Shown: in pieces, positions 7,863-19,611 of the stretch
Numbering within the stretch: position 1 is the first letter of the stretch
Layout: every line of letters begins with the position of its first letter
DNA from: Escherichia coli
GTDB lineage: Bacteria > Pseudomonadota > Gammaproteobacteria > Enterobacterales > Enterobacteriaceae
Length of the DNA: 64,000 bases
NCBI RefSeq assembly: GCF_024502345.1
Contig: NZ_JALDNN010000003.1
Reading direction: 5' to 3' (one strand)
Position numbers and translations under genes: made by a program
Notes under the pieces: model-generated
What the model saw: the letters and a program-made list of their open reading frames with translations, nothing else
Database searches by the model: none
Told to the model about the DNA's origin: nothing

Positions 7863-9455
7863 CTATTTATTGGTGAGATCTACGTTCCATGGCAGCAGTT
7901 CGGCCACTTTGTTGATGGGCCACTCCGGCAATACGCTCAGGATATGGCGAAGGTAACCCTCTGGATCGATACCGTTCAGCCTGCACGTTCCGATCAGACC
8001 ATACAGCAGGGCACCACGTTCACCACCATGATCACTGCCGAAGAAGATGTAGTTTTTCTTGCCCAGACAGACCGCTCGTAGCGCGCGCTCAGCAGCGTTA
8101 TTATCCGGCTCTGCCAGACCATCATCGCAGTAGTAACACAGGGCATCCCACTGGTTCAGTGCATAAGCGAACGCCTCGCCTAACCGGGATTTTTTCGACA
8201 GAGTGGCTCTTTTCTCCACCAACCAGTCATGCAGGGATATCAGCAACGGTTTACTTCGGGACCGTCTGGCGGCCAGCCGCTGAGATGCCGGAAGGCCGCG
8301 TATTTCCTCTTCTATCGCGTATAACTCACTGATGCGCTTCAGAGCCTCCTCTGCTGTGGCCGTCCGGGTGCTGATATAGACGTCATGGATTTTGCGCCGC
8401 GCATGAGCCCAGCATGCCGCTTCTGTCAACGGGCCACCTTCACGCTCTGCGCTGAACAACCTGTCGTACCCTGCGAAGGCATCTGCCTGCAGCACGCCAT
8501 GATAGTGCCGAAGATGTTGCTGAGGGTGTTTCCCCTGTCGGTCCGGTGAGAAGGCGAACCATGCCGCTGGCGGATCTGATGAACCCGCGCTTCTGTTATC
8601 ACGGACATATGTCCAGATACGCCCGGTTTTCGTCTTCTTTCTGCCCGGCGCCAGCACGGGCACCGGAGTGTCATCCGTATGCAGTTTGCGGCAGTCCATC
8701 ACGTAGTGGTAGAGGGCTTCATCCAGCGGGGCCATTAACCGGCAGCACGCATCCACCCAGTTGGAGAGCAGCGCACGACTCAGATCCACACCCTGACGGG
8801 CAAAGATTTCGCACTGGCGATACAGCGGCAGGTGTTCACAGTATTTGGCCGTTAACACGCGGGCCAGCAGACCCGGCCCGGCGATGCCCCGGTCGATAGG
8901 ACGTGAGGGCGCTGGCGCTTCAACGACGCAGTCGCATCGGGTACAGGCCTTTTTCACTCTGACCGTGCGGATCACTTTCAGGGCGCTGGAGACCAGCTCC
9001 AGTTGCTCCGCGCTGACTTCGCTGAGATAGGCCATATCACTACCGCAACCAGGACAGCTGGTTTCAGCTGGCTCCAGTCTGTTTATTTCGCGGGGAAGAT
9101 GTTCCGGTAACGGGCGACGATGACGGGACTGGCGCAACTGACGCGGAACCTGCTGATCATTGTCCCGGCCGTTGTAACGATCGCTTTGCTGCTCCTGCTG
9201 TTTCAGCAGGGCTTCGGCTTCTTCGACCTGCCGGCGTAGCTTTTCTGAACGGGTACCGAACAGCATTCGGCGCAGTTTTTCTATCTGAGCCCGCAGATAT
9301 TCTATTTCACGCTCTTCGTTCTCTATTTTCTCTTCTGCGCGGGCCAGCGCCGAACGCAGGAACGACTCAGTCTCAGCAACGAGACTGAGCTGGCTGTCTT
9401 TCTGGCGAAGCGCGTCTTCCAGCGCAGCGATACGGGCGAGATAGTCCTGACTCAT
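7863..9455 (-). CDS. IS66-family transposase TnpC (orf3)
   Basis: 530-aa ORF with N-terminal coiled coil, zinc-finger (CPGCG...CTRCDC) and DDE core typical of IS66 TnpC. Confidence 0.9.
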   Translation of the reverse strand: MSQDYLARIAALEDALRQKDSQLSLVAETESFLRSALARAEEKIENEEREIEYLRAQIEKLRRMLFGTRSEKLRRQVEEAEALLKQQEQQSDRYNGRDNDQQVPRQLRQSRHRRPLPEHLPREINRLEPAETSCPGCGSDMAYLSEVSAEQLELVSSALKVIRTVRVKKACTRCDCVVEAPAPSRPIDRGIAGPGLLARVLTAKYCEHLPLYRQCEIFARQGVDLSRALLSNWVDACCRLMAPLDEALYHYVMDCRKLHTDDTPVPVLAPGRKKTKTGRIWTYVRDNRSAGSSDPPAAWFAFSPDRQGKHPQQHLRHYHGVLQADAFAGYDRLFSAEREGGPLTEAACWAHARRKIHDVYISTRTATAEEALKRISELYAIEEEIRGLPASQRLAARRSRSKPLLISLHDWLVEKRATLSKKSRLGEAFAYALNQWDALCYYCDDGLAEPDNNAAERALRAVCLGKKNYIFFGSDHGGERGALLYGLIGTCRLNGIDPEGYLRHILSVLPEWPINKVAELLPWNVDLTNK

Positions 9456-9485
9456 GACCCCATTTATAATGCGGTCATGCGCTTT

Positions 9486-9836
9486 TTACAACATCGTCAG
9501 TGAGTTAAGGCGTGCAGTTTTAGGTTGCCGCCAGTCCAGCTTATCGAGGAGCATGGCGAGTTGTGAGCGGGTGATGGCGATTTTGCCGTCGCGTACAGCA
9601 GGCCAGACGAACTGTCCCTCTTCCAGACGTTTGGTAAACAGACACAGACCGTCAGCATCAGCCCAGAGGATCCTCACGGTGTCACCTTTACGACCACGGA
9701 AGATAAACAGGTGGCCGGAGAACGGATTGTCATCAAGAACATGCTGGACCAGTTCGCCCAGACCATTGAAGGACTTACGCATATCGGTGACCCCGGCAAC
9801 CAGCCAGATACGAGTGCCTGACGGTAAGGGTATCAT
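9486..9836 (-). CDS. IS66-family accessory protein TnpB (orf2)
   Basis: MIPLPSGTRIWLVAGVTDMRKSFNGL... ; ATGA overlap with upstream orf1. Confidence 0.85.
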   Translation of the reverse strand: MIPLPSGTRIWLVAGVTDMRKSFNGLGELVQHVLDDNPFSGHLFIFRGRKGDTVRILWADADGLCLFTKRLEEGQFVWPAVRDGKIAITRSQLAMLLDKLDWRQPKTARLNSLTML

Positions 9837-10240
9837 CGGCTCCTCCCGGTCAGCTCGCGGATCAGCGTTTTCAGAAGTGCAGGTGATAAATCCCCGGACA
9901 GACGCAGGCTGGCACCGCCGACAGTCACCTCGCATGTCATGGCCTCGCGGCAGGCTGGAGCGGCGGGTTCATAGTGCGGCTCAGCATGGTGTGACAGGGC
10001 CATATCAGGCAGGACAACGGGGATAACAGAGTCTTGCTCTCTGATTGACCGTTGTATTTCATCGGGCAGAAGATGTCTGTAACGCTGGCGCCAGGTAAAC
10101 AGCAGATTGTCATTAATTCCATTATCCCGCGCCAACCGGGCAACACAGGCTCCAGGCTGATATGACTTTTCGACGAGAGCCAGCTTAAAGTCCATTGAGT
10201 AGGACGCCCGCGCCCTGCGGGGCTGAAGAGTGTTTGACAT
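9833..10240 (-). CDS. IS66-family accessory protein TnpA (orf1), HTH
   Basis: 135-aa ORF first in three-gene IS66 operon. Confidence 0.8.
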   Translation of the reverse strand: MSNTLQPRRARASYSMDFKLALVEKSYQPGACVARLARDNGINDNLLFTWRQRYRHLLPDEIQRSIREQDSVIPVVLPDMALSHHAEPHYEPAAPACREAMTCEVTVGGASLRLSGDLSPALLKTLIRELTGRSR

Positions 10241-10326
10241 TGATAGAGTCCATTAACGTTAATAAGAGGACTCTATCATCGTCAATCGTTAGTAATCGCA
10301 ACAGGCGGCAGTGGCTTGACGCTTAC

Positions 10327-10366
10327 AGACAAAAGGCTGCCTCATCGCTAACTTTGCAACAGTGCC
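10327..10366 (+). mobile_element. IS26 right end (includes duplicated AGACAAAA, then 32 bp ending in IS26 IR)
   Basis: AGACAAAAGGCTGCCTCATCGCTAACTTTGCAACAGTGCC continues IS26 exactly where it was broken at 7832. Confidence 0.85.
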
Positions 10367-10455
10367 GTCGCTGACATCGTGCAACGACACAGAGCTAACG
10401 CTTAGGGTGTCATTTCGCCCTCAGCCGGAACCGACCCCAAGGACAGCGACTCTCA

Positions 10456-12834
10456 GTGATGGAGCACCTAAAAAGAGGCCCTGTCACTATCAGCGGCCCC
10501 GCATTCACTGAAGCACTTGAACGTTACACTCGCCTGCGCAGCCTGGAATTTTCCTGCCTGAATTTCACTGGGCTGCCTGCCATACAGCTCCGCAACCTGG
10601 CACGCTATGCCGGAATGGCATCGGTGAAATATATCAGCAGAATGCCAGAAGAACGGCGGCTGGCTATCCTTACCGCGTTCGTGAAAGCGCAAGAAATCTC
10701 GGCGCTGGACGAGGCCGTTGACGTGCTGGATATGCTGATCCTCAATATTACCAGGGAGGCGAAGAAAACCGGGCAGAAAAAGCGACTTAGGACGCTCAAG
10801 GATCTTGACCGTGCGGCGTTGTTGCTGGCGCGGGCATGTGCACTTTTACTTGATGAAGATACTGGTGATGATTTGCTGCGAAAGACCATATTCAGCAGTG
10901 TACCTGTCGCCAGACTGGCAGAGTCAGTGGAAAAAGTGAATGAACTGGCCCGCCCCCAGGATACAAACTTTCAGGATGAAATGGTGGAGCAGTACGGACG
11001 GGTAAGGCGTTTTTTGCCCGCACTACTGCGCGATCTGCACTTCCGGGCGGCCCCAGACGGTGAACATACCCTCGCGGCCATCCATTACCTGGCAGAGCTA
11101 AACGGCTCGAAAAAACGGATCCTGGACGATGCACCTGAGCATATCATTTCAGGCCCTTGGAAACGCCTGGTGTACGATGCTGAAGGTCGGATACAGCGAG
11201 CGGGTTACTCGTTGTGTCTGCTGGAGCGACTTCAGGATGCGCTACGCCGTCGTGACATCTGGTTGGAAAACAGCGATCGTTGGGGTGATCCGCGCCAAAA
11301 ACTTCTTCAGGGGGAGGAATGGCAGGCGCAGCGGGTTCCAGTGTGCCGGGCATTGGGTCACCCCACCAATGGCAGTAAAGCATCGGTGCAATTGGCAGCA
11401 CGGTTGGATGAAACCTGGAAAACGGTGGCATCACGTTTTGACCGCAATACCGCCGTAGACATCTGCAATGAAGGTAAACATCCTTCGCTGACCATCAGCA
11501 GCCTGGATAAATTGGATGAGCCACCGGCGCTGATACGACTGAGCAGCCGAGTCAGACAATTGCTCCCACCCGTTGACCTGACAGAACTGTTGCTTGAGAT
11601 TGACGCCAGAACGGGTTTCACCCGTGAATTCAGCCATGTCAGCGAGTCAGGTGCCCGCGCGCAGGATCTGCATATAAGCCTGTGTGCGGTGATGCTGGCT
11701 GAGGCCTGCAATATCGGACATGAGCCGCTGATCAAGCACAATATCCCTGCACTGACCCGCCATCGCCTGAGCTGGGTGAAACAGAACTACATCCGAGCAG
11801 AAACGCTGGTCAGCGCCAATGCGCGGCTGGTTGATTTTCAGTCCTCGTTAGCGTTGGCAGGATACTGGGGTGGCGGTGAGGTGGCCTCCGCTGATGGTAT
11901 GCGTTTTGTCACACCAGTGAAAACGGTGAATTCTGGCCCCAACAGAAAATACTTTGGTTCAGGGCGCGGCATTACCTGGTACAACTTTGTCTCTGACCAA
12001 TATTCGGGTTTTCATGGCATAGTGATCCCTGGAACGCTGCGGGATTCCATTTTTGTGCTGGAGGGACTACTTGAGCAACAAACGGGACTAAACCCGGTTG
12101 AAATCATGACGGACACAGCAGGTACCAGTGACATTATCTTTGGCTTGTTCTGGCTACTGGGATACCAATTTTCACCTCGTCTGGCGGATGCTGGTGAGGC
12201 GGTGTTCTGGCGGGCTGACAAAGCAGCGAATTACGGGGCGTTGGACGAACTGGCTCGGGGTTGTGTTGACCTTTCTAAAATCGAAAGCCACTGGGATGAG
12301 ATGATGCGGGTTGCAGGTTCGCTGAAGCTGGGCACAATTCATGCGTCAGAACTCATTCGATCGCTATTGAGAAGTACCCGACCGTCAGGGCTTGCTCAGG
12401 CAATAATGGAGGTCGGAAGAGTTAACAAGACACTGTATCTTCTCAACTATATTGATGATGAGGACTATCGCCGCAGGATCCTAACACAGCTTAACCGGGG
12501 CGAAGGTCGCCATGCCGTGGCAAGAGCCATTTGCTACGGTCAGCGTGGTGAGATCAGAAAACGTTACCGCGAGGGGCAGGAAGATCAGTTGGGTGCGCTG
12601 GGTCTGGTGACAAACGCAGTGGTGCTGTGGAATACGCTTTATATGCAGGAAGCCTTGTCGCACCTGCGTAGCACTGGGGAAGGGCCAGAAGATGAACATA
12701 TCGCGCGGCTTTCGCCTCTGATGCATGGTCATATCAACATGCTGGGACATTATACGTTCACACTACCGGAGGATATTATGAAGGGGGAATTGAGGCCGTT
12801 AAATCTCAATTTAAACAATGAATTACCTCCTTAG
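10456..12834 (+). pseudogene. Tn3-family transposase TnpA, 5'-truncated (about 200 N-terminal codons missing; upstream 90 bp in a different frame)
   Basis: 792-aa translation colinear with C-terminal ~4/5 of Tn3-family TnpA (about 1000 aa); starts at IS26 junction; stop codon lies inside terminal IR. Confidence 0.85.
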
Positions 12835-12867
12835 CGTGGTTTTTTACATCATTGGCCCTCAAACCCC
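12830..12867. repeat. Tn3-family 38-bp terminal inverted repeat
   Basis: Reverse complement reads GGGGTTTGAGGGCCAATGATGTAAAAAACCACGCTAAG (GGGG...ACGCTAAG pattern of Tn3-family IRs), overlapping tnpA stop. Confidence 0.8.
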
Positions 12868-12913
12868 TTATATGCGTTCTTAACGTTTGCTGCCCACTGT
12901 TCAATGCGGAGCA

Positions 12914-13060
12914 TCATTGCATATGTTGCTGCGGCATCAAGATCCAGTTGTTCAGAGTGTTCAGGGAGCAGAATTTTACAATATTCCAGTCATGAGCCAC
13001 AGCTCCGAGCCGTTCATAAAGTGTAGATAGTTGCGTTATGGAATCATCAGTGCGGTTCAT
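12914..13060 (-). CDS. small ORF (48 aa), translationally coupled (ATGA) to upstream 222-aa gene
   Basis: MNRTDDSITQLSTLYERLGAVAHDWNIVKFCS...; start overlaps stop of 13057-13725 gene; ends 47 bp from Tn3 IR; may be remnant of a gene disrupted by the transposon. Confidence 0.25.
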   Translation of the reverse strand: MNRTDDSITQLSTLYERLGAVAHDWNIVKFCSLNTLNNWILMPQQHMQ

Positions 13061-13725
13061 GAATAGCGCCGACTTCCAATAATATATTGAGCAAGTTTGA
13101 TGTTAAGACATACCATGTTGCTTGATAGTTGGCGCATCATACGGGATTCGCTACGAATTAAATAGGATTCAAGTAGTCCAGAATATTCCCCTGACGTTAC
13201 AACCGTCAACTGGGCAATGTGATTATTTAATTTGCTTACCCCTGCCAGGATATCATCCTCCGTCGCCTCGATATAAACGGGGGAGGCAGCGATAACATAA
13301 TCATCGAAAGGTCTTGCTGCCATCAATGTCTCAATAGATTTCGCCGTCCTTTCTTTCCCGAATGTATTTGTTAATTCCCGCCACCATTGTCGGTGACTGA
13401 ACGGTAAATCATGAAAGGTGGCTTCATAAGCGTCCACGAGGTCACGACTATTCAAAAAACCCAACCCGGCCGAGATCACCCACAACTCCAGGTTCTCAGT
13501 TGTCCGTAATATCTCTTTTGCCGTTGACCAGTGATTACCGGCATAGAGCGACAGGGCCGGTACCGGTGAAGCACTTTGCGACCGTTTAATCGTTGCTGCC
13601 CAGCTGGACATTGCCTCTTCTGGTGTCTGTCCAGACCGGATACTCAGTTCTGGCATGGAGCCGCACTGGCTGTGCTTACCTTTGGTACAGGACGTTATTA
13701 GGTGTGTAATTCGCGACGCCGCCAT
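13057..13725 (-). CDS. hypothetical protein (222 aa)
   Basis: ATG at 13725 preceded by GAGGG SD; ORF track extends to TTG at 13743; no family recognised. Confidence 0.55.
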   Translation of the reverse strand: MAASRITHLITSCTKGKHSQCGSMPELSIRSGQTPEEAMSSWAATIKRSQSASPVPALSLYAGNHWSTAKEILRTTENLELWVISAGLGFLNSRDLVDAYEATFHDLPFSHRQWWRELTNTFGKERTAKSIETLMAARPFDDYVIAASPVYIEATEDDILAGVSKLNNHIAQLTVVTSGEYSGLLESYLIRSESRMMRQLSSNMVCLNIKLAQYIIGSRRYS

Positions 13726-13935
13726 TTTGTAGCCCTCAGCCAAATGTGTGTAATCACTGTCTAACTATCGTAACAGCCCCTCATCCGCCATAACGACAAA
13801 GAGGAAGCCCTAAACGTAAACGACTACCCCATTATACATTTAGTCATGCCTTTACTAATAACTAGATACCAAAGTAAACACCCCAGAGGTGACACCGTCA
13901 CGTTTTTCGGCTTTATTTAGTTCATTTTATGTACT

Positions 13936-13963
13936 ATGGGATTTAATTATGGGTAAATCCCAT
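13936..13963. promoter_or_regulatory. perfect 10-bp inverted repeat ATGGGATTTA-N8-TAAATCCCAT in divergent promoter region
   Basis: Read directly; sits in 500-bp AT-rich ORF-free region between divergent genes; CTTTACTAAT also repeated at about 13846 and 14141. Confidence 0.4.
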
Positions 13964-14233
13964 AGATTTACACCTCTACTCAAAAGAGCCTAATAGAAAC
14001 TAAATCCTTATATATCAATAACTTGAATTCGCCATCACGCACCCATAGAGAGCACCCGTCTTTTGTCGGGCCGTAGGGTTGTTGGCCCCATAGTAACTGC
14101 ATGCTAATCTCTTTCATGCTTAGTCACTAGTAAAGGCTTTACTAATTGCGATGCTACGTGAATATTATTGACGGAGGAGGGGGTTGGGGCAGTGAAAATC
14201 TCTCAGCCAAAACAGTGGGAAAAGGATCGTGAA

Positions 14234-15046
14234 ATGAGCATGAATTATCAGCCGGAACTGAAGTTGAGTACCCGCACCGAACAACTCGCCAGTAGTCGTG
14301 ATGCCGCTATGCAAAAATTTCTGGACGGTATTATGCTGATTGCCGAAGCCTCAGCTATTTGCGGGTTTTCACTATTTAACAGCAAAATTATGGCCCCTAA
14401 TGCTTTTGGCCTTCCTGCGTCCCTGGCCGCAAGCATCGAGGAAGGGCGACAGCAAATAGACCGTAAGACATGGAACAATCTTTTTGAAGAAACGGGTATT
14501 GACCGATTCTGGAATCACAACCAGCGAGCGGAGTTCAGTGAGTCTCTCCGGTCCGCTCCGCCAATTGCGTCGTTAACCGTAATCCGTAGCACATTGCGCC
14601 AGGCAGTGGCCATTCGGAGCATCACGCTTGCTCAAGGGTTTGTTGATCTGCTATGCCAGCTTGATCGCCGGTATAAAACTAATGCCCAGCAATTTGTGAT
14701 GCCAAAAAAACTGGTACTACGTGGCATTTTTCCCGACTCGAACATGATGAGATATAACGGCTTTTCTCAGGATAATCTCTTCTATTTGAACGACTTTGAG
14801 AATATCGTTTGCATCTGCTCCAACGCAGCGACACCTCCTGTCGGCAGTGGATTGAATATGTACGACCGGCTTGCTGCCTTAAGGAAAACCGATTTTACTG
14901 GTGACATTACCGACCCGAAGGGCTGGAAGTGCCGATTGTTCGTAAATGGTAATGTCCATATTTCAGTTGAGTGTGAAAGCCTGCATAACACACTGAATGA
15001 CCTGATTAGCATTTATTTTGCCAACCAGATCCCGGCCAAAGGATAA
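14234..15046 (+). CDS. hypothetical protein (about 270 aa)
   Basis: ATG at 14234 with AAGGA SD (ORF track uses TTG at 14168); 2-bp gap to next gene. Confidence 0.55.
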   Translation: MSMNYQPELKLSTRTEQLASSRDAAMQKFLDGIMLIAEASAICGFSLFNSKIMAPNAFGLPASLAASIEEGRQQIDRKTWNNLFEETGIDRFWNHNQRAEFSESLRSAPPIASLTVIRSTLRQAVAIRSITLAQGFVDLLCQLDRRYKTNAQQFVMPKKLVLRGIFPDSNMMRYNGFSQDNLFYLNDFENIVCICSNAATPPVGSGLNMYDRLAALRKTDFTGDITDPKGWKCRLFVNGNVHISVECESLHNTLNDLISIYFANQIPAKG

Positions 15047-15048
15047 GA

Positions 15049-16269
15049 ATGATGACTGACAATGAAAATTTGATGAACGGGGATGAACAGACAGCGTCCA
15101 ATTTAAGTGAAGAGACAACAAAAAAGCGCCCTCTCAGCCCCGAACTACTGAAGAATTCTCCTTATTCATCAATAGCTAAGGTTAAATATTTCACCGAAAT
15201 TGAACAAATCTGCCTCGATAAGGGCATCAGCACCGAAAACCTCGATCAGTTTTTCAAAGCCCACTGGCTGCGGGATAAAATGGGGGGGTCTTTTGCCCGC
15301 GCTCAGGAGATGCTGGCTGCCTACAAGCAATACGTGGACGAGGTGCCCGAGGAAGCGCGTGCGATTGAAATCCCTGACCAGATTAAAGAAGCATTTAGTG
15401 ATTTTACTGCGTTTATCATCTGGTACTTCCGCTTAAGCTATACGGCTATCCAGAGTGATAGCGTGAAAATTGCGAAGGCAGAAATTACTCAGTTAAGACA
15501 TCGGAATGCTGAAATTCTGGAAGAACTGTCACAGTCGAAAGAACAGGTTACAGTACTGAATAACGAAAAAGTTAACCTGATTAACCAGCTGGAACAACAG
15601 CGTGAACTCGCCAGTAAATTGGGGGATTCACTTCGGGAAGCAGAAGAAGCGCTGGCTACAACCCAAAGTGAATTACAGCATGCCCAAAACGAGATTCAGC
15701 TTATACAGCAGACAGTAGGGACACTGAACCAACAACTGAGTGAGCGCAAGCAGGAACTGGCCTCCCAGCAGGAGTACCAGAAGCAACTGAATGATGAGAA
15801 TAAAGAGCAGCAGGTAGAGCTGACAGCCCTCAAAAGCCAGAATGAACACTTACAACGGACCGTATCTGATTTAAAGGTCAGTGTCAGTCAGCTTGAACAG
15901 GACCTTTCCTCAGCACAAACCCATTCCTCTGAATTGAGCTCATCTTTAGCCGAAAAGGACACGGCCCTGACGCTCGTGCGGTCGGAGCTGTCAACAGCTA
16001 AAGGGGAGAATGAACAACTTCGAGCTGAAGCACAACGCTTAGGTGATGAGAGCCTGCTTGCCAAAAAGGTGCAAACAGCTCAGACAGAAGAACTTCGGAA
16101 GCTCCAGAATCAGATGATATCCATGGAAGCGACACTCAATGCGGAAAAGACCATTTCAGAGTCTTTACGAGGAACAATCAAGCAGCTTACCGAAGCTATG
16201 ACCGGCGCAGTTGCCATCAAACCTAAATCCTCTGGGGCATCAAAACCGCGAAACAAAAAGACGACATAA
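15049..16269 (+). CDS. coiled-coil protein with N-terminal globular domain (KfrA-like architecture)
   Basis: 406 aa; residues ~140-380 are heptad-rich Q/E/L/K repeats (LEQQRELASKLGDSLREAEEALATTQSELQHAQNEIQ...). Confidence 0.65.
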   Translation: MMTDNENLMNGDEQTASNLSEETTKKRPLSPELLKNSPYSSIAKVKYFTEIEQICLDKGISTENLDQFFKAHWLRDKMGGSFARAQEMLAAYKQYVDEVPEEARAIEIPDQIKEAFSDFTAFIIWYFRLSYTAIQSDSVKIAKAEITQLRHRNAEILEELSQSKEQVTVLNNEKVNLINQLEQQRELASKLGDSLREAEEALATTQSELQHAQNEIQLIQQTVGTLNQQLSERKQELASQQEYQKQLNDENKEQQVELTALKSQNEHLQRTVSDLKVSVSQLEQDLSSAQTHSSELSSSLAEKDTALTLVRSELSTAKGENEQLRAEAQRLGDESLLAKKVQTAQTEELRKLQNQMISMEATLNAEKTISESLRGTIKQLTEAMTGAVAIKPKSSGASKPRNKKTT

Positions 16270-16323: not shown

Positions 16324-16539
16324 TTATCCCGTTCGCAGGAGTTTACGTCCTTCCGACAGCATTAGGCTGATTTTCCCCGAATCACTGATCTCAATAGCAT
16401 CAACCAGGCTAGTGATCCCGCCAACAGCTTGCTGTTGTGAAATAGCTCCCAGTTTGTAGTCATCGAGTACTGCCGCCAAAAACGCCTTCAGTTTAACCTG
16501 CTCACTCATCGAAAGTATGTACGCCATTTTTAGCCCCAT
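16324..16539 (-). CDS. small hypothetical protein (about 71 aa), 4th gene of methyltransferase operon
   Basis: ATG 1 nt after stop of 439-aa gene; MGLKMAYILSMSEQVKLKAFLAAVLDDYKLGAISQQQ... Confidence 0.3.
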   Translation of the reverse strand: MGLKMAYILSMSEQVKLKAFLAAVLDDYKLGAISQQQAVGGITSLVDAIEISDSGKISLMLSEGRKLLRTG

Positions 16540-16540
16540 T

Positions 16541-17860
16541 TTAAGGTTGTGATTCGGGTGAATTGTATCGTCTAGCTTCCGGGAAATGAGGGAGTTCCTG
16601 GTATTCAGTCTTCTCCGTAGCATCCCAGTGCCACCATCCATAGGCCCCATATTCCTGGTTGTAATACGCCTTCTTAAGTTCCTTTCGCGCAAGATAGGCA
16701 GGTGTCGACATCCCGAAAACTTCCATCGGGAACGGCTTATCACTTCGTGTATCCAGTAAATAAAAATCTGGGAAAACATCGCTCACACTGGCGTCATACC
16801 GCATAGGCTTAACATAGTGCCGGTGTTCGGCATCAAGTTTACGGGACACTATCGCTTCGTAGGAGGAGTCCAGAGGTATCCAGTTATCACTCACCAGCAT
16901 AAGCACTATCTGATGAGCTCGTGCAGAGATACCTCTACTGGTCACCGATACGGGAGATGTAAGAGCAAAAACAACAACTTTGCCCCCATTTTTCCAGGCG
17001 GCATATTCCAGAGGGAATCGCCGCTTCACGCTATCCCAGTGCCCGTCTGAGTTAAAGAAGGTAAGGGGCATACCGCCGAAGTTACGCATAGGTAGAAACT
17101 TCAGCGGCTTCTCATGCTTTTCTGCGTCATAGCGCGGCAGTACTGATAGCAGCAGCAGTCGTTTGTCGCTCAGTTCCGCCGACGACAGCAGTTGAACCTG
17201 CTCACTGGCCACTTTGCTTTTAGAGTCCGCCACCCCGATAAAAAGATGGTCGCCAATACATGCTCTACCCGATCTAATCTGCTTTGCGGCTTCCAACATC
17301 CGGTATCGAACCAGCGAATCATTTCGCTTCCCGGCCATATTCGGATACCAGACATTAAGACCGGCTTCAGTCCACAACAGACTCAGAAGTCCGGACAGGG
17401 TCATTGAAGCCTGGCCACCTTCAGGTCGCTGGATTTGGGGCAGGGAAGGAACCTCAGACTTTTCCGGCGGATCTTTCTCCGTCATGCCTATTCCAAGGCG
17501 GATTGACATGGTCCCCTCATTGTTGATGCGTACAACATTGCTGGCATAACCCTTTAACCCTGTATGCCTGGCATCAAGGTCGAAAAACACACACGATGGA
17601 TCATGCTCAGTGCCGGTATTTGCAGCCTTAATCAGGATGAACGTATCACTGTTTGGTAGTGAGCGGACGTAGAGACGCTTTGCGCCTTTTCCCCGACATC
17701 CGCAGCTGATCACAGATTTCTGCCCGGACGTGTGGTGTGCTTTCTTCAGGGCCGACTGCCATCCCTTTACATACTCATCCTGTGTCTGAAATTCAGCCGA
17801 GTATCGTTTCGTGTTTGGTTCGTCATCGTAAGCAATAAAAACTGCAAACTTCTGGCCCAT
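16541..17860 (-). CDS. hypothetical 439-aa protein downstream of C5-methyltransferase; candidate restriction endonuclease or methylation-dependent partner
   Basis: Strong SD AGGAGG before ATG at 17860; co-directional with MTase; no family recognised by eye. Confidence 0.65.
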   Translation of the reverse strand: MGQKFAVFIAYDDEPNTKRYSAEFQTQDEYVKGWQSALKKAHHTSGQKSVISCGCRGKGAKRLYVRSLPNSDTFILIKAANTGTEHDPSCVFFDLDARHTGLKGYASNVVRINNEGTMSIRLGIGMTEKDPPEKSEVPSLPQIQRPEGGQASMTLSGLLSLLWTEAGLNVWYPNMAGKRNDSLVRYRMLEAAKQIRSGRACIGDHLFIGVADSKSKVASEQVQLLSSAELSDKRLLLLSVLPRYDAEKHEKPLKFLPMRNFGGMPLTFFNSDGHWDSVKRRFPLEYAAWKNGGKVVVFALTSPVSVTSRGISARAHQIVLMLVSDNWIPLDSSYEAIVSRKLDAEHRHYVKPMRYDASVSDVFPDFYLLDTRSDKPFPMEVFGMSTPAYLARKELKKAYYNQEYGAYGWWHWDATEKTEYQELPHFPEARRYNSPESQP

Positions 17861-17884
17861 GGGACCTCCTGAAATTTAAAAATA

Positions 17885-18055
17885 CTAATAGCCTAGCCAT
17901 ATCAATACTTCTTGCGCGTTGTACTCTTCCCTCTCACCCAACTCGGAAAAAAATACGTCTATGTCGCTGGCTACGACGCAATGTTTTGCAAGCTCTTGCA
18001 GAGCTCTCTGTTTTGAAATGGTGAGGTCTTCTGCTGAATCAAAATACGTCATCAT
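17885..18055 (-). CDS. small ORF (56 aa) between methyltransferase and 439-aa gene
   Basis: MMTYFDSAEDLTISKQRALQELAKHCVVASDIDVFFSELGEREEYNAQEVLIWLGY; GGAGG SD; below ORF-track length cutoff. Confidence 0.3.
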   Translation of the reverse strand: MMTYFDSAEDLTISKQRALQELAKHCVVASDIDVFFSELGEREEYNAQEVLIWLGY

Positions 18056-18183
18056 TACCTCCTGATGAAGGAGTTGACTGAAGCAGGCCTTTCTCTCCCT
18101 GCCCAGGTTTTTTTCTGTGCAAAAGTTACAATATTAGTGAAATAAACCATTACGTTAACCTGCAAAATCACACAGAAGAATTA

Positions 18184-19611
18184 CTATGATGCCGCTTCAA
18201 ATTCTCCCTTGAGACGAGCCGCAACGGCGATCTCAATACGGCTTCGAAGCAAACTGGCCACGGCCGCAAATACGTCGACGATGACCGAATTGCCGAACTG
18301 GCGATAGGCCTGGGTATCAGAGACTGGAATGCGAAAAGTAACTTTTCCCGGTTGCTCGAATCCCATAAGGCGGGCACATTCTCGCGGGGTTAAACGGCGC
18401 GGGCGCCTTGCCATATTTACAGGATCATTAAAGTCCTTTTCGCCTATGCTGTGATCCCATCCACGGTCTAGCAAAATTTCAGAGCCATCACGATAGTACC
18501 GTGCGCTGAGTGTTCTGCAAACAACTGATTTATCAAGTGGATTTACCAGTCCGAAGCCAAATCCATTACCTTTTGCCTGGTGCTTTTTAGCGTAGTTATA
18601 AAGGTACTCCCAGAGCTTTGGAGAAAGGATGTAACGGCTATCGACCTCAGCGTCCAGCAGCTCCCCAAGGGTTGGCCGTCGTGAAGGATAAAGAGCCGAT
18701 ACACCACTTAACGAAAAGCCATCATGGAGCTTCAGATCGCGCCTGAATCCAACCAACACGATACGTTCCCGGTGCTGAGGCCTGAAGTTCTTACCGTCAA
18801 TTATTTTGGGGTCCTTTGATCCGTGAGCATCGCAGTCGGCAACATCGTAGCCAAGTTCATCAAGCGCTTTCATGATGATGCGGAACGTATTTCCCTTATC
18901 GTGGCTCTTCAGATTTTTTACGTTCTCAAGAACGAAAATGGCAGGCTGTTTGGCTCGGATGATCCGGGCGACATCAAAAAAAAGGGTCCCCTGGGTGTCG
19001 CATTCAAAGCCGTGTTTTCGGCCCAAAGAGTTCTTTTTGCTGACACCGGCAATACTGAACGGCTGGCATGGGAAACCGGCGAGCAAAACATCATGGTCAG
19101 GAATGGATGCAGCGATAGAAGCATACGCCTGGTCTTCCGACACATCGGGAAGATTGCTGAGTGTAATGTCCCGGATATCTGAGTTGAAATGGTGCTCGGT
19201 GTCTTCGCAGTACCAGTTTGCACTGTATGTCCGGCGGGAGAACTGATTCCATTCGCTTGTAAACACGCATTTCCCGCCAATGGCGTCAAAACCACTCCGG
19301 AGGCCACCGATCCCAGCAAACAAGTCAATAAAACGGAAAAATTTCTGGTCATAGTCTGCTGGGCGTGAGGGGAGCAACGATCGAAGATAATGATATTCTT
19401 CCTGGGTTATTCGACATTCATTAACTGAACCTTTGATCTGGCGAATAAGTGATGCCCTCGACCAGTCGCTGCCGGTTGCAGCATTAAGTTGCGCAGCCAA
19501 ATCTTTTACGTCATAGATACTTGCAACCTGAACCAGTAATTTATGGATAGAGGAATGTGTCTCATCATTTAGCAATGCAGTTATTGCAGGCTCATTTCTC
19601 GCGCTGTACAT
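18184..19611 (-). CDS. DNA (cytosine-5)-methyltransferase, Dcm/EcoRII-methylase-like
   Basis: Motifs FAGIGG (AdoMet binding), PCQPFS (catalytic Cys), ENV; colinear with E. coli Dcm over nearly full length. Confidence 0.9.

What the first reader, a model, noticed from the sequence alone, without database searches (positions are those of the whole stretch)
12868..16269. Accessory cluster beside the Tn3 IR: coupled 222-aa + 48-aa genes, divergent 270-aa gene and KfrA-like coiled-coil protein
The 222-aa gene is ATGA-coupled to a 48-aa ORF that ends 47 bp from the Tn3-family IR, possibly a gene remnant. A 500-bp AT-rich divergent promoter region carries a perfect 10-bp inverted repeat with 8-bp spacer (ATGGGATTTA...TAAATCCCAT) and repeated CTTTACTAAT units. 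Across it lie a ~270-aa unknown and, 2 bp after, a 406-aa protein with a ~240-residue coiled coil. No component is recognisable; the architecture suggests a regulated module of unknown function.
Basis: seen in the sequence. Interest (0 to 1): 0.45.

Follow-up and report, generated by a model that had tools for sequence, protein, structure and literature searches.

The report
Conserved IncHI plasmid backbone gene module
This is an uncharacterised but conserved stretch of IncHI resistance-plasmid backbone: a lone DpdC-type DNA-base enzyme gene, a regulatory region with conserved symmetric sites, and an operon for a DUF4942 protein plus a probable KfrA/TlpA-like coiled-coil protein.

Summary
The interpretation needs correcting in three ways.

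- **Not accessory cargo.** The block is IncHI plasmid backbone, equivalent by my gene-order mapping to R27 ORFs R0158-R0162. The same gene order occurs in IncHI1, IncHI2 and more distant plasmids.
- **Two of the three proteins are recognisable; the third probably is.**
  - The 222-aa protein is a DpdC-family (DUF6884) enzyme. It is 41% identical to a DpdC in a genuine dpd island and keeps the CxxxK and SAxxG motifs. It has no dpdA/dpdB partners and lacks DpdC's C-terminal ~95 residues.
  - The 270-aa protein is DUF4942. Other family members carry this domain ahead of a SAM methyltransferase domain, and pOXA-48 encodes a stand-alone copy beside its relaxase genes.
  - The 406-aa protein is probably a divergent KfrA/TlpA-type protein. 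R27 labels it "tlpA". Its relatives score below threshold against Pfam KfrA_N, and hhalign gives 93.5% probability, or 54% without the coiled coil.
- **The 48-aa ORF is a remnant.** It derives from a 90-aa gene broken by a 1-nt deletion and by the Tn3-family junction.

The inverted repeat has 12-bp arms. It is conserved across lineages, and one distant lineage carries compensatory changes in both arms. Two CTTTACTA-type sites flank it and occur only where the coiled-coil gene is present.

Best reading: an autoregulated operon. The biochemical function remains unknown. Interest is moderate.

The parts
12830..12867 (-). 38-bp terminal inverted repeat of a Tn3-family transposon (GGGG...TAAG), marking the left edge of the backbone block
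   Evidence: Exact single match in the window. It follows an ORF with a DDE_Tnp_Tn3 domain, E 2.9e-153. Homology to pHCM1 starts at 12869.
12914..13060 (-). 48-aa ORF: broken remnant of a 90-aa gene found intact in pHCM1 and R27
   Evidence: The first 23 codons match the pHCM1 90-aa gene. A 1-nt deletion then shifts the frame, and the 3' end is replaced by the Tn3-family junction. The downstream small gene differs between lineages.
13057..13725 (-). 222-aa orphan DpdC-family (DUF6884) gene
   Evidence: Pfam DUF6884 scores 32 bits (cut-off 30) and PADLOC DpdC scores 1.4e-55. It is 41% identical over its whole length to a 318-aa DpdC next to TGT, DndB, SNF2 and DpdG genes. C13 and K17 and the ISAG motif (I84-S85-A86 invariant, G87 nearly so) are conserved. 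No dpdA or dpdB appears in the annotated region of a closely related plasmid corresponding to the window.
13841..13857 (.). O1: imperfect palindrome TAGTCATG-C-CTTTACTA carrying one CTTTACTA half-site
   Evidence: It is invariant in pHCM1 and p34983. The half-site sits at the same relative position in IncHI2 and L008, and is replaced by GTTATGAGT in L009.
13889..13901 (.). Small dyad GTGAC-N3-GTCAC
   Evidence: Conserved in six of the seven aligned loci, including L009; pMS7884A, whose upstream region is replaced, lacks it. It was flagged only as a weak terminator-like hairpin. No function is assigned.
13934..13965 (.). Central inverted repeat CTATGGGATTTA N8 TAAATCCCATAG
   Evidence: Perfect 12-nt arms and no match in 100 shuffles. 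The 10-nt core arms are exact in 8 fetched IncHI loci while the spacer varies. L009 has CTATGCGATATA...TATATCGCATAG, with two changes mirrored in both arms.
14128..14144 (.). O2: perfect palindrome TAGTAAAG-G-CTTTACTA, 90-106 bp upstream of the ATG at 14234
   Evidence: It is conserved in IncHI2 (TTAGTAAAG-C-CTTTACTAA) and replaced by TACTCATAAC-N3-GTTATGAATA in L009.
14234..15046 (+). 270-aa DUF4942 gene (a GTG at 14192 would give 284 aa)
   Evidence: Pfam DUF4942 scores 76 bits (cut-off 25). 349 cluster representatives match at E<=1e-3, either stand-alone or followed by a SAM methyltransferase domain. The AlphaFold2 model has pLDDT 88.8 and no informative structural match.
15049..16269 (+). 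406-aa protein: ~135-residue N-terminal region with a possible KfrA_N-like helix-turn-helix, then a ~250-residue coiled coil; equivalent to R27 R0158 ('tlpA')
   Evidence: R27 gene order and label. Pfam KfrA_N scores below threshold in four orthologues. hhalign against a TlpA/KfrA_N set gives 93.5%, or 54% without the coiled coil. Coiled-coil composition.
16324..19611 (-). Context, conserved with the module: 67-aa gene, DUF1173 (predicted PD-(D/E)XK nuclease), 56-aa gene, DNA cytosine methyltransferase
   Evidence: PMC3045609 for the DUF1173 prediction.

Best explanation
**What it is (shown).** The region is a conserved piece of IncHI conjugative-plasmid backbone. It lies between the plasmid hns gene and the DUF1173/dcm/thermonuclease cluster. 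A Tn3-family transposon abuts its left edge. That junction, together with a 1-nt deletion, destroyed a small 90-aa gene and left the 48-aa ORF.

**Two transcription units diverge from a ~500-bp regulatory region.**
- *Leftward:* an orphan DpdC-family enzyme. Inferred from its family, it is a DNA-binding, base-flipping enzyme with an intact CxxxK/SAxxG site. Its nearest characterised relative hydrates preQ0 in DNA to the amide ADG. Here it has no DpdA/DpdB to supply preQ0.
- *Rightward:* a tightly linked pair, DUF4942 and a 406-aa coiled-coil protein.

**How it most likely works (inferred).** The coiled-coil protein is a divergent KfrA/TlpA-type repressor. As a coiled-coil dimer or oligomer, it binds through its N-terminal helix-turn-helix to the CTTTACTA-type sites O1 and O2, which bracket the region about 260-290 bp apart. 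In this way it autoregulates its own operon and probably the divergent DpdC-like gene. Like TlpA, it may be temperature-sensitive.

The central 12-bp inverted repeat is a second, separate site that travels with DUF4942 rather than with the coiled-coil gene.

**What remains unknown.** The biochemical role of DUF4942 and of the orphan DpdC-like enzyme. Their neighbours (H-NS, Dcm, nucleases, UmuDC in related plasmids) point to DNA transactions during plasmid establishment or maintenance.
For: **Backbone and synteny**
- The order H-NS ... DUF6884 | DUF4942-coiled coil | 67 aa-DUF1173-56 aa-Dcm | thermonuclease recurs in pHCM1, R27, p34983, IncHI2 pHNSHP45-2 and L008. pMS7884A and L009 keep the core but lack the DUF6884 side.
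- DUF4942 at >=60% identity occurs in 1429 plasmid records, and the coiled-coil N-domain in 1430.

**Remnant**
-.

**DpdC family**
-.
- Published in-vitro activity of DpdC: PMC10164549.
- DUF6884 motifs and YaaA-like DNA-binding fold: PMC11701544.

**KfrA/TlpA likeness**
- R27 labels R0158 'tlpA, regulator'.
- Genuine TlpA matches Pfam KfrA_N at 5.6e-17.
- The IncHI1 and IncHI2 orthologues score 19-21 bits against KfrA_N, with a cut-off of 26.1.
- hhalign gives 93.5% (E 2.3e-7). The same register is kept at 54% (E 1.3e-4) once the coiled coil is removed.
- KfrA of RA3 is an autoregulator that binds repeated 9-bp units over its own promoter (PMC7783346).

**Candidate operators**
- O1 and O2 are conserved between IncHI1 and IncHI2.
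- In L009 they are replaced by a different palindrome at the same positions. There the N-domain is only 26-32% identical.
- They are absent upstream of DUF4942 genes that have no coiled-coil partner (L016, L017, pOXA-48).
- In the 64-kb window, O-type sites occur only here.

**Expression in R27**
- R0158-R0162 give 1.6-2.7x higher signal at 37 C than at 25 C.
- They respond little to loss of HtdA at 25 C (1.3-2.9x), whereas the neighbouring R0153-R0157 rise 4-16x.
- I inferred the mapping of R-numbers to genes from gene order.
Against: - No binding or regulation has been shown for any of these proteins.
- The window's own 406-aa protein does not reach any Pfam KfrA_N listing, and BLASTP against TlpA is not significant.
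- The AlphaFold2 model of the N-domain is poor (pLDDT 62), so a helix-turn-helix could not be confirmed structurally.
- The N-domain is net acidic, with 15 K+R against 22 D+E.
- No consensus sigma-70 promoter was found in the region, so the position of the sites relative to promoters is unknown.
- The association of O1/O2 with the coiled-coil gene rests on only about four lineages with the gene and three without.
- A central-IR-like dyad also sits upstream of a DUF4942 gene with no coiled-coil partner (L016). The most conspicuous site is therefore probably not the coiled-coil protein's.
- H-NS silencing alone could explain the higher expression at 37 C.
- DUF4942 is a pseudogene in R27 and pHCM1, so the pair is dispensable in at least that lineage.
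Confidence: 0.5

Rival explanations
1. DUF4942 itself is the sequence-specific DNA-binding protein. It recognises the central inverted repeat and autoregulates the operon. The coiled-coil protein is a structural or scaffolding partner, as KfrC is to KfrA, and not the repressor.
For: - A related dyad with about the same geometry lies upstream of DUF4942 in L016, where there is no coiled-coil gene. Its core half-site TATGTCGTATAA matches 9 of 12 positions of L009's TATGCGATATAA (my own comparison of the sequences).
- In other family members DUF4942 sits ahead of a DNA methyltransferase domain, the place where a DNA-recognition module would sit.
- The central repeat changes in L009 together with a DUF4942 that is only 49% identical.
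Against: - DUF4942 has no detectable DNA-binding fold and no structural match at all.
- Its invariant residues (W80, D187, H242, N255) look more like a catalytic or metal site than a variable recognition surface.
- No similar dyad lies upstream of DUF4942 in L017 or pOXA-48.
Confidence: 0.2
2. The region is controlled mainly by factors encoded elsewhere: H-NS/Hha silencing of AT-rich DNA, or another plasmid or host regulator. The conserved dyads are sites for those factors, and neither local protein regulates.
For: - The region is AT-rich and next to the plasmid hns gene.
- Expression is higher at 37 C, as is typical of H-NS-silenced genes.
- GTGAC-N3-GTCAC is conserved even where O1, O2 and the inverted repeat have changed sequence, as expected for a site bound by a conserved host factor.
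Against: - H-NS needs no palindromes.
- O1, O2 and the inverted repeat change sequence with the plasmid lineage, which fits a co-evolving plasmid-encoded binder.
- The sites are unique within 64 kb, so they are not part of a wide regulon.
- The block responds little to loss of HtdA at 25 C.
Confidence: 0.17
3. The repeats act as nucleic-acid structure and not as protein sites: a hairpin in a long 5' leader RNA, or a folded single-stranded DNA element used when the plasmid enters a new cell, like the single-strand promoters of plasmid leading regions.
For: - The 346-nt region folds better than shuffled sequence as single-stranded DNA on both strands (z -3.2 and -2.7), with an outer stem formed by O1 and O2.
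- The changes in the central repeat keep base pairing.
- Distant DUF4942 relatives lie in the region next to the relaxase genes of pOXA-48.
Against: - O1 and O2 are copies of one palindromic motif, so they pair with each other automatically. The z-scores are modest.
- No Rfam family matches.
- Known single-strand promoters are long imperfect hairpins carrying -35 and -10 boxes, and no such boxes were found.
- The position of this block relative to oriT was not established.
Confidence: 0.08

Closest known systems
DpdC of the Dpd 7-deazaguanine restriction-modification system (Salmonella Montevideo; DUF6884)
   Same: - Same family: PADLOC DpdC 1.4e-55.
- 41% identity over all 222 residues to a DpdC inside a dpd island.
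- Invariant CxxxK and SAxxG motifs.
   Different: - No dpdA, dpdB or dpdD-K on the plasmid stretch examined.
- Lacks the ~95-residue C-terminal extension of the island enzyme.
- Sits on conjugative plasmids beside H-NS, nuclease and UmuDC genes.
- Its substrate is therefore unknown.
TlpA of the Salmonella virulence plasmid and KfrA of IncP/IncU plasmids (KfrA_N domain plus long coiled coil; autoregulators)
   Same: - N-terminal globular part followed by a ~250-residue coiled coil.
- Plasmid-encoded, with repeated symmetric sites in its own upstream region.
- R27 annotation 'tlpA'.
- Remote profile similarity.
   Different: - Below Pfam's threshold.
- A longer N-terminal part (~135 against ~55-80 residues).
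- Second gene of an operon behind DUF4942, not a stand-alone autoregulated gene.
- No partition genes beside it.
- Binding and temperature sensing are untested.
DUF4942 proteins of other plasmids, islands and phages, including DUF4942-methyltransferase fusions and the pOXA-48 copy
   Same: Same Pfam domain over almost the whole protein. Stand-alone ~260-290-aa form, as in pOXA-48 and large Klebsiella plasmids.
   Different: - Only 23-30% identical to those copies.
- Only the IncHI-type copies are followed by the coiled-coil gene.
- No methyltransferase domain here.
R27 / pHCM1 backbone ORFs R0158-R0162
   Same: Same genes in the same order, 94-99% identical.
   Different: - In the window DUF4942 is intact, whereas it carries a stop codon in pHCM1.
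- The 90-aa gene is broken in the window.
- A ~135-bp patch (13966-14100) has diverged.

Membership tests
DpdC / DUF6884 | Significant match to the family profile | tested here: met
   Pfam PF21818 scores 32 bits (cut-off 30). PADLOC DpdC PDLC02818 scores 1.4e-55 over profile positions 5-232 of 319.
DpdC / DUF6884 | Conserved CxxxK and LSAxxG motifs (PMC11701544) | tested here: met
   C13-T-K-G-K17 and I84-S85-A86-G87-L-G89. C13, K17, I84, S85 and A86 are invariant in 17 relatives, including an island DpdC.
DpdC / DUF6884 | Encoded with dpdA (TGT-like) and dpdB (DndB-like) in a dpd island | tested here: not met
   No such genes appear in the annotated context of a closely related plasmid or of IncHI relatives. 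The true island is shown for comparison.
DpdC / DUF6884 | Converts preQ0 in DNA to ADG | not testable with these tools
   Activity is known only for the S. Montevideo enzyme (PMC10164549).
DUF4942 | Significant match to the family profile over the whole domain | tested here: met
   PF13708 scores 76.3 bits (cut-off 25), profile positions 2-187 of 190.
DUF4942-methyltransferase fusions (orphan DNA methyltransferases) | C-terminal class I SAM methyltransferase domain | tested here: not met
   The protein ends after DUF4942. The fusion form exists in other family members.
KfrA / TlpA-type proteins | N-terminal KfrA_N DNA-binding domain | tested here: inconclusive
   - The window protein gets no Pfam KfrA_N listing.
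- Four orthologues score 19-21 bits against a cut-off of 26.1.
- hhalign gives 93.5% with the start of the coiled coil and 54% without it.
- The AlphaFold2 model is too poor to judge.
KfrA / TlpA-type proteins | Long C-terminal alpha-helical coiled coil | tested here: met
   One proline in residues 136-392, L/E/Q-rich composition, and a continuous helix from residue 110 to the end of the modelled 1-184 segment.
KfrA / TlpA-type proteins | Binds repeated sites in its own promoter and represses it | not testable with these tools
   Candidate sites O1 and O2 co-occur and co-vary with the gene. No binding data exist.
Tn3-family transposon end | ~38-bp terminal inverted repeat (GGGG...TAAG) next to a DDE_Tnp_Tn3 transposase gene | tested here: met
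   The second end of the element was not found in the window.
Plasmid leading-region anti-defence genes | Located just downstream of oriT on the first-transferred strand | not tested
   Only indirect evidence: distant DUF4942 relatives lie beside ssb, an antirestriction gene and mobA/traI in pOXA-48. The IncHI oriT position was not mapped here.

The most novel reading that the evidence does not exclude
IncHI and several other families of conjugative plasmids carry lone parts of DNA-modification defence systems. Here that part is a DpdC-type enzyme. In pOXA-48 it is a DndB/DGQHR protein, also beside DUF4942.

The most novel reading is that these act on 7-deazaguanine-modified or otherwise modified DNA to help the plasmid establish itself in hosts armed with Dpd-like systems, or to disarm such systems. 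DUF4942 and the coiled-coil protein would form a temperature-responsive control and targeting unit. That would be a new class of plasmid counter-defence based on editing a hypermodified base.
Probability: 0.1. Interest if true: 0.75.

Novelty: new member of a known kind. Interest (0 to 1): 0.4.

Why it matters
- The module sits on more than 1,400 sequenced large resistance plasmids of Enterobacteriaceae, including IncHI1 and IncHI2 plasmids (one fetched example, pHNSHP45-2, comes from pig faeces) and the S. Typhi plasmids R27 and pHCM1. None of its genes has an assigned role.
- It gives three testable leads:
  - a probable local KfrA/TlpA-type repressor with defined candidate operators, on plasmids whose conjugation is known to be thermoregulated;
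  - an orphan DpdC-type enzyme with an intact active site but no preQ0-inserting partners;
  - DUF4942, a protein family found on more than 3,000 plasmids, for which a confident model found no informative match among solved structures.
- Overall this is ordinary plasmid backbone with unknown function, not a new kind of system.

Tried and rejected
**Ideas rejected**
- *Split DpdC.* I asked whether the coupled small gene is the missing C-terminal part of DpdC. The pHCM1 90-aa and p34983 150-aa proteins match no DpdC model. The small gene also differs between lineages.
- *The repeat as a transposon end or attachment site.* Homology to pHCM1 stops exactly at the repeat, and p724-MDR has a Tn7-like element nearby. 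But pHCM1-type sequence continues for ~220 bp past the repeat in p724-MDR, and the Tn7-like end lies at the DUF4942 start. The break only reflects a diverged patch in the window.
- *A 45-aa ORF in that patch (13980-14117).* It is not conserved, being interrupted after 16 codons in pHCM1 (my translation of the alignment).
- *Intrinsic terminator or known RNA.* There are only weak 5-bp hairpins and no Rfam match.
- *Direct TlpA homology by BLASTP.* Not significant.

**Searches that gave nothing useful**
- The N-domain model was too poor to search with.
- A genome-contig scan for more DUF4942 loci found nothing.
- Sequence searches of PDB found no meaningful relative for any of the three proteins; the only hits were three chance-level matches (E 0.7-1.0) for the 222-aa protein.

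**Idea left untested**
- The C-terminal beta-hairpin plus helix of DUF4942, with invariant NGNxH and N255, may be a His-Me finger nuclease motif. Nothing here tests it.

Full report
**1.

ORF listing and direct reading confirm each described feature.
- The 222-aa gene (13057-13725, minus strand) overlaps a 48-aa ORF (12914-13060) by ATGA.
- A 38-bp Tn3-family terminal repeat lies at 12830-12867, directly after a DDE_Tnp_Tn3 ORF.
- The intergenic region has 41.5% GC, against 48.7% for the window.
- The 270-aa gene (14234-15046) is followed after 2 nt by the 406-aa gene (15049-16269).
- The inverted repeat is stronger than reported: 12-nt perfect arms with an 8-nt spacer at 13934-13965. None of 100 shuffles gave a match.
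- CTTTACTAAT occurs at 13850 and 14137. The second copy is half of a perfect palindrome, TAGTAAAG-G-CTTTACTA.

**2. Where the window comes from**

- The 3.6-kb region is 100% identical to several E. coli and Klebsiella plasmids typed IncHI1A/IncFIB. Part of it matches 816 plasmid records, nearly all conjugative.
- In S. Typhi pHCM1 and R27 the same genes lie between the plasmid hns gene and a DUF1173/dcm/thermonuclease cluster.
- The block is therefore plasmid backbone and not transposon cargo. The transposon is a later neighbour.

**3. The 48-aa ORF is a remnant**

- pHCM1 has a 90-aa gene coupled to the 222-aa gene.
- The window copy matches it for 23 codons. It then lacks one T, which shifts the frame. 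Its 3' end is cut off at the transposon junction at 12867/12868.
- The gene at this position is not conserved between lineages. It is 150 aa in p34983 and an unrelated 90-aa protein in another plasmid type.

**4. The 222-aa protein is DpdC-family**

- It passes the Pfam DUF6884 threshold and matches a PADLOC DpdC model at 1.4e-55.
- It is 41% identical over its whole length to a 318-aa Brenneria protein. That protein sits next to TGT (dpdA), DndB-like (dpdB), SNF2, DEAD and DpdG genes behind an integrase, which is a genuine dpd island.
- The family's CxxxK and SAxxG motifs (PMC11701544) are conserved in an alignment of plasmid copies with the island enzyme.
- DpdC converts preQ0 in DNA to ADG independently of DpdA/B (PMC10164549).
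- The plasmid copy lacks the island enzyme's last ~95 residues.
- No dpdA or dpdB appears in the annotated region of a closely related plasmid that corresponds to the window.
- Similar short orphan copies occur on other conjugative plasmids, several of them beside H-NS, thermonuclease, DUF1173, PsiA or UmuDC genes.
- What the orphan acts on is unknown.

**5. The 270-aa protein is DUF4942**

- Pfam scores 76 bits.
- An exhaustive search found 349 cluster representatives in two forms: stand-alone (~260 aa), or followed by a class I SAM methyltransferase domain (~460-500 aa).
- tblastn finds the family on 3,085 plasmid records.
- In pOXA-48 a 23%-identical copy lies with ssb, an antirestriction gene, Hha, a JAB protein and a DndB-like DGQHR protein, next to mobA/traI.
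- An AlphaFold2 model is confident (pLDDT 88.8, pTM 0.84). It shows a long helical hairpin plus an alpha/beta part carrying invariant D187, H242 and N255.
- In pHCM1 the gene carries a stop codon. In R27 it is missing from the gene table.

**6. The 406-aa protein**

- Its N-terminal domain family is confined to IncHI-type plasmids. It occurs in 1,430 records; the IncHI2 version is 47-53% identical and a distant full-length relative (L009) 28%.
- It follows DUF4942 in every IncHI-type locus inspected: after a 2-nt gap in the IncHI1-type loci, with a 4-nt overlap in IncHI2.
- The counts of plasmids with close DUF4942 (1,429) and with this domain (1,430) agree.
- At about 30% DUF4942 identity the partner is absent.
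- The R27 transcriptome paper lists R0158 as 'tlpA, regulator'. Gene order identifies R0158 as this gene.
- BLASTP against genuine TlpA is not significant.
- However, TlpA belongs to Pfam KfrA_N, and four orthologues of the 406-aa protein score 19-21 bits against KfrA_N, with a cut-off of 26.1.
- A profile-profile comparison with five TlpA/KfrA_N proteins gives 93.5% probability.
- With the coiled coil removed from both sides, the same register survives at 54% (E 1.3e-4). It aligns 'LRxxxGGS...Y' and 'EIPDQIKEA' with TlpA's helix-turn-helix region and linker.
- The AlphaFold2 model of the N-domain is too poor to help.
- I rate remote KfrA/TlpA relatedness as likely but unproven.

**7. The regulatory region**

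Aligning seven loci shows four conserved elements.
- **Central repeat.** The arms are identical in IncHI1, IncHI1B-typed and IncHI2 plasmids while the spacer varies. In L009 two positions are changed in both arms, keeping the symmetry.
- **O1 and O2.** They carry CTTTACTA half-sites 261-287 bp apart in IncHI1, IncHI2 and L008. L009 has a different half-site, GTTATGAGT, at the same two places. Loci without the coiled-coil gene have neither.
- **GTGAC-N3-GTCAC.** It is conserved in six of the seven aligned loci. pMS7884A, whose upstream region is replaced, lacks it.
- A dyad resembling the central repeat also lies upstream of a partner-less DUF4942 gene (L016). The central repeat therefore tracks DUF4942, while O1 and O2 track the coiled-coil gene.
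- The region folds somewhat better than shuffles as single-stranded DNA. This follows from O1 and O2 being copies of one palindrome.
- No consensus promoter, good terminator or Rfam family was found.

**8. Expression data from the literature**

- In R27, R0158-R0162 give 1.6-2.7x more signal at 37 C than at 25 C.
- Loss of HtdA at 25 C raises R0153-R0157 4-16x but R0158-R0162 only 1.3-2.9x (PMC7366339).
- This fits separate, local control and is compatible with a TlpA-like thermometer. H-NS silencing would give the same temperature trend.
- I inferred the assignment of R0159-R0162 to individual genes from gene order.

**9. Conclusion**

- *Shown:* the block is a conserved IncHI backbone module, two of its proteins belong to known families, the 48-aa ORF is debris, and the repeats are conserved and co-vary with lineage.
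- *Inferred (about 0.5):* the coiled-coil protein is a KfrA/TlpA-type autoregulator acting at O1 and O2.
- *Open:* what binds the central repeat, and what DUF4942 and the orphan DpdC-like enzyme do.
- The setting among H-NS, Dcm, nuclease and (in relatives) UmuDC and PsiA genes suggests a role in DNA transactions during plasmid establishment or maintenance. That is only an inference from neighbourhood.

Noticed in passing
window 13173-13725 (locus L002 9258-9812): RefSeq annotates the DUF6884 gene as only 184 aa on NZ_CP081775. That start would cut off the invariant CxxxK motif. The conserved start is the ATG at window 13725, giving 222 aa.
   Followed up: partly
L003 8312-9178 (pHCM1); R27 L023 27703-29096: DUF4942 is split by a stop codon into 169 + 116 aa in S. 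Typhi pHCM1, where the window has Gln. It is missing from the R27 gene table. The gene is therefore dispensable in that lineage.
   Followed up: partly
window 13966-14100: A ~135-bp patch just right of the inverted repeat is strongly diverged from pHCM1 and p34983, although both flanks are ~99% identical. This suggests a small recombination patch. A 45-aa ORF in it is not conserved.
   Followed up: partly
L007 about 8421 onward (p724-MDR): A Tn7-like element (tnsA, tnsB, tnsC, tnsD-family) is inserted just upstream of the DUF4942 start region. Its end begins TGTCCGAGGACAATAAAG.
   Followed up: no
L002 1759-9035 and L004 273-5323; window 7863-12834: Sister Tn3-family elements beside this block carry defence-like cargo: SIR2 + ATP-binding protein on NZ_CP081775, and TIR + DUF4231 on p34983. 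In the window itself only the C-terminal 792 aa of the transposase form an ORF, and an IS66-family transposase lies just upstream (7863-9455).
   Followed up: no
L001 about 8900-9001 (pBA33875): This plasmid has the same breakpoint at window 12868/12869 and the same 1-nt deletion, but unrelated DNA to the left. This points to a later rearrangement at the transposon end.
   Followed up: no
window 16541-19611; L024 5046-7105: DUF1173, predicted in the literature to be a PD-(D/E)XK nuclease, always sits two genes from the Dcm methyltransferase. This could be a restriction-modification-like pair. In pOXA-48 an orphan DndB-like (DGQHR) gene lies beside DUF4942.
   Followed up: no
window 14924-15022 (DUF4942 residues 231-263): The model shows a beta-hairpin plus helix carrying invariant N238-G-N-x-H242 and N255. 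This resembles a His-Me finger nuclease motif. No search supported or refuted it.
   Followed up: no
window 13889-13901: GTGAC-N3-GTCAC is conserved in six of the seven aligned loci, even where the other repeats have changed sequence. pMS7884A, whose upstream region is replaced, lacks it. Its binder is unknown.
   Followed up: partly
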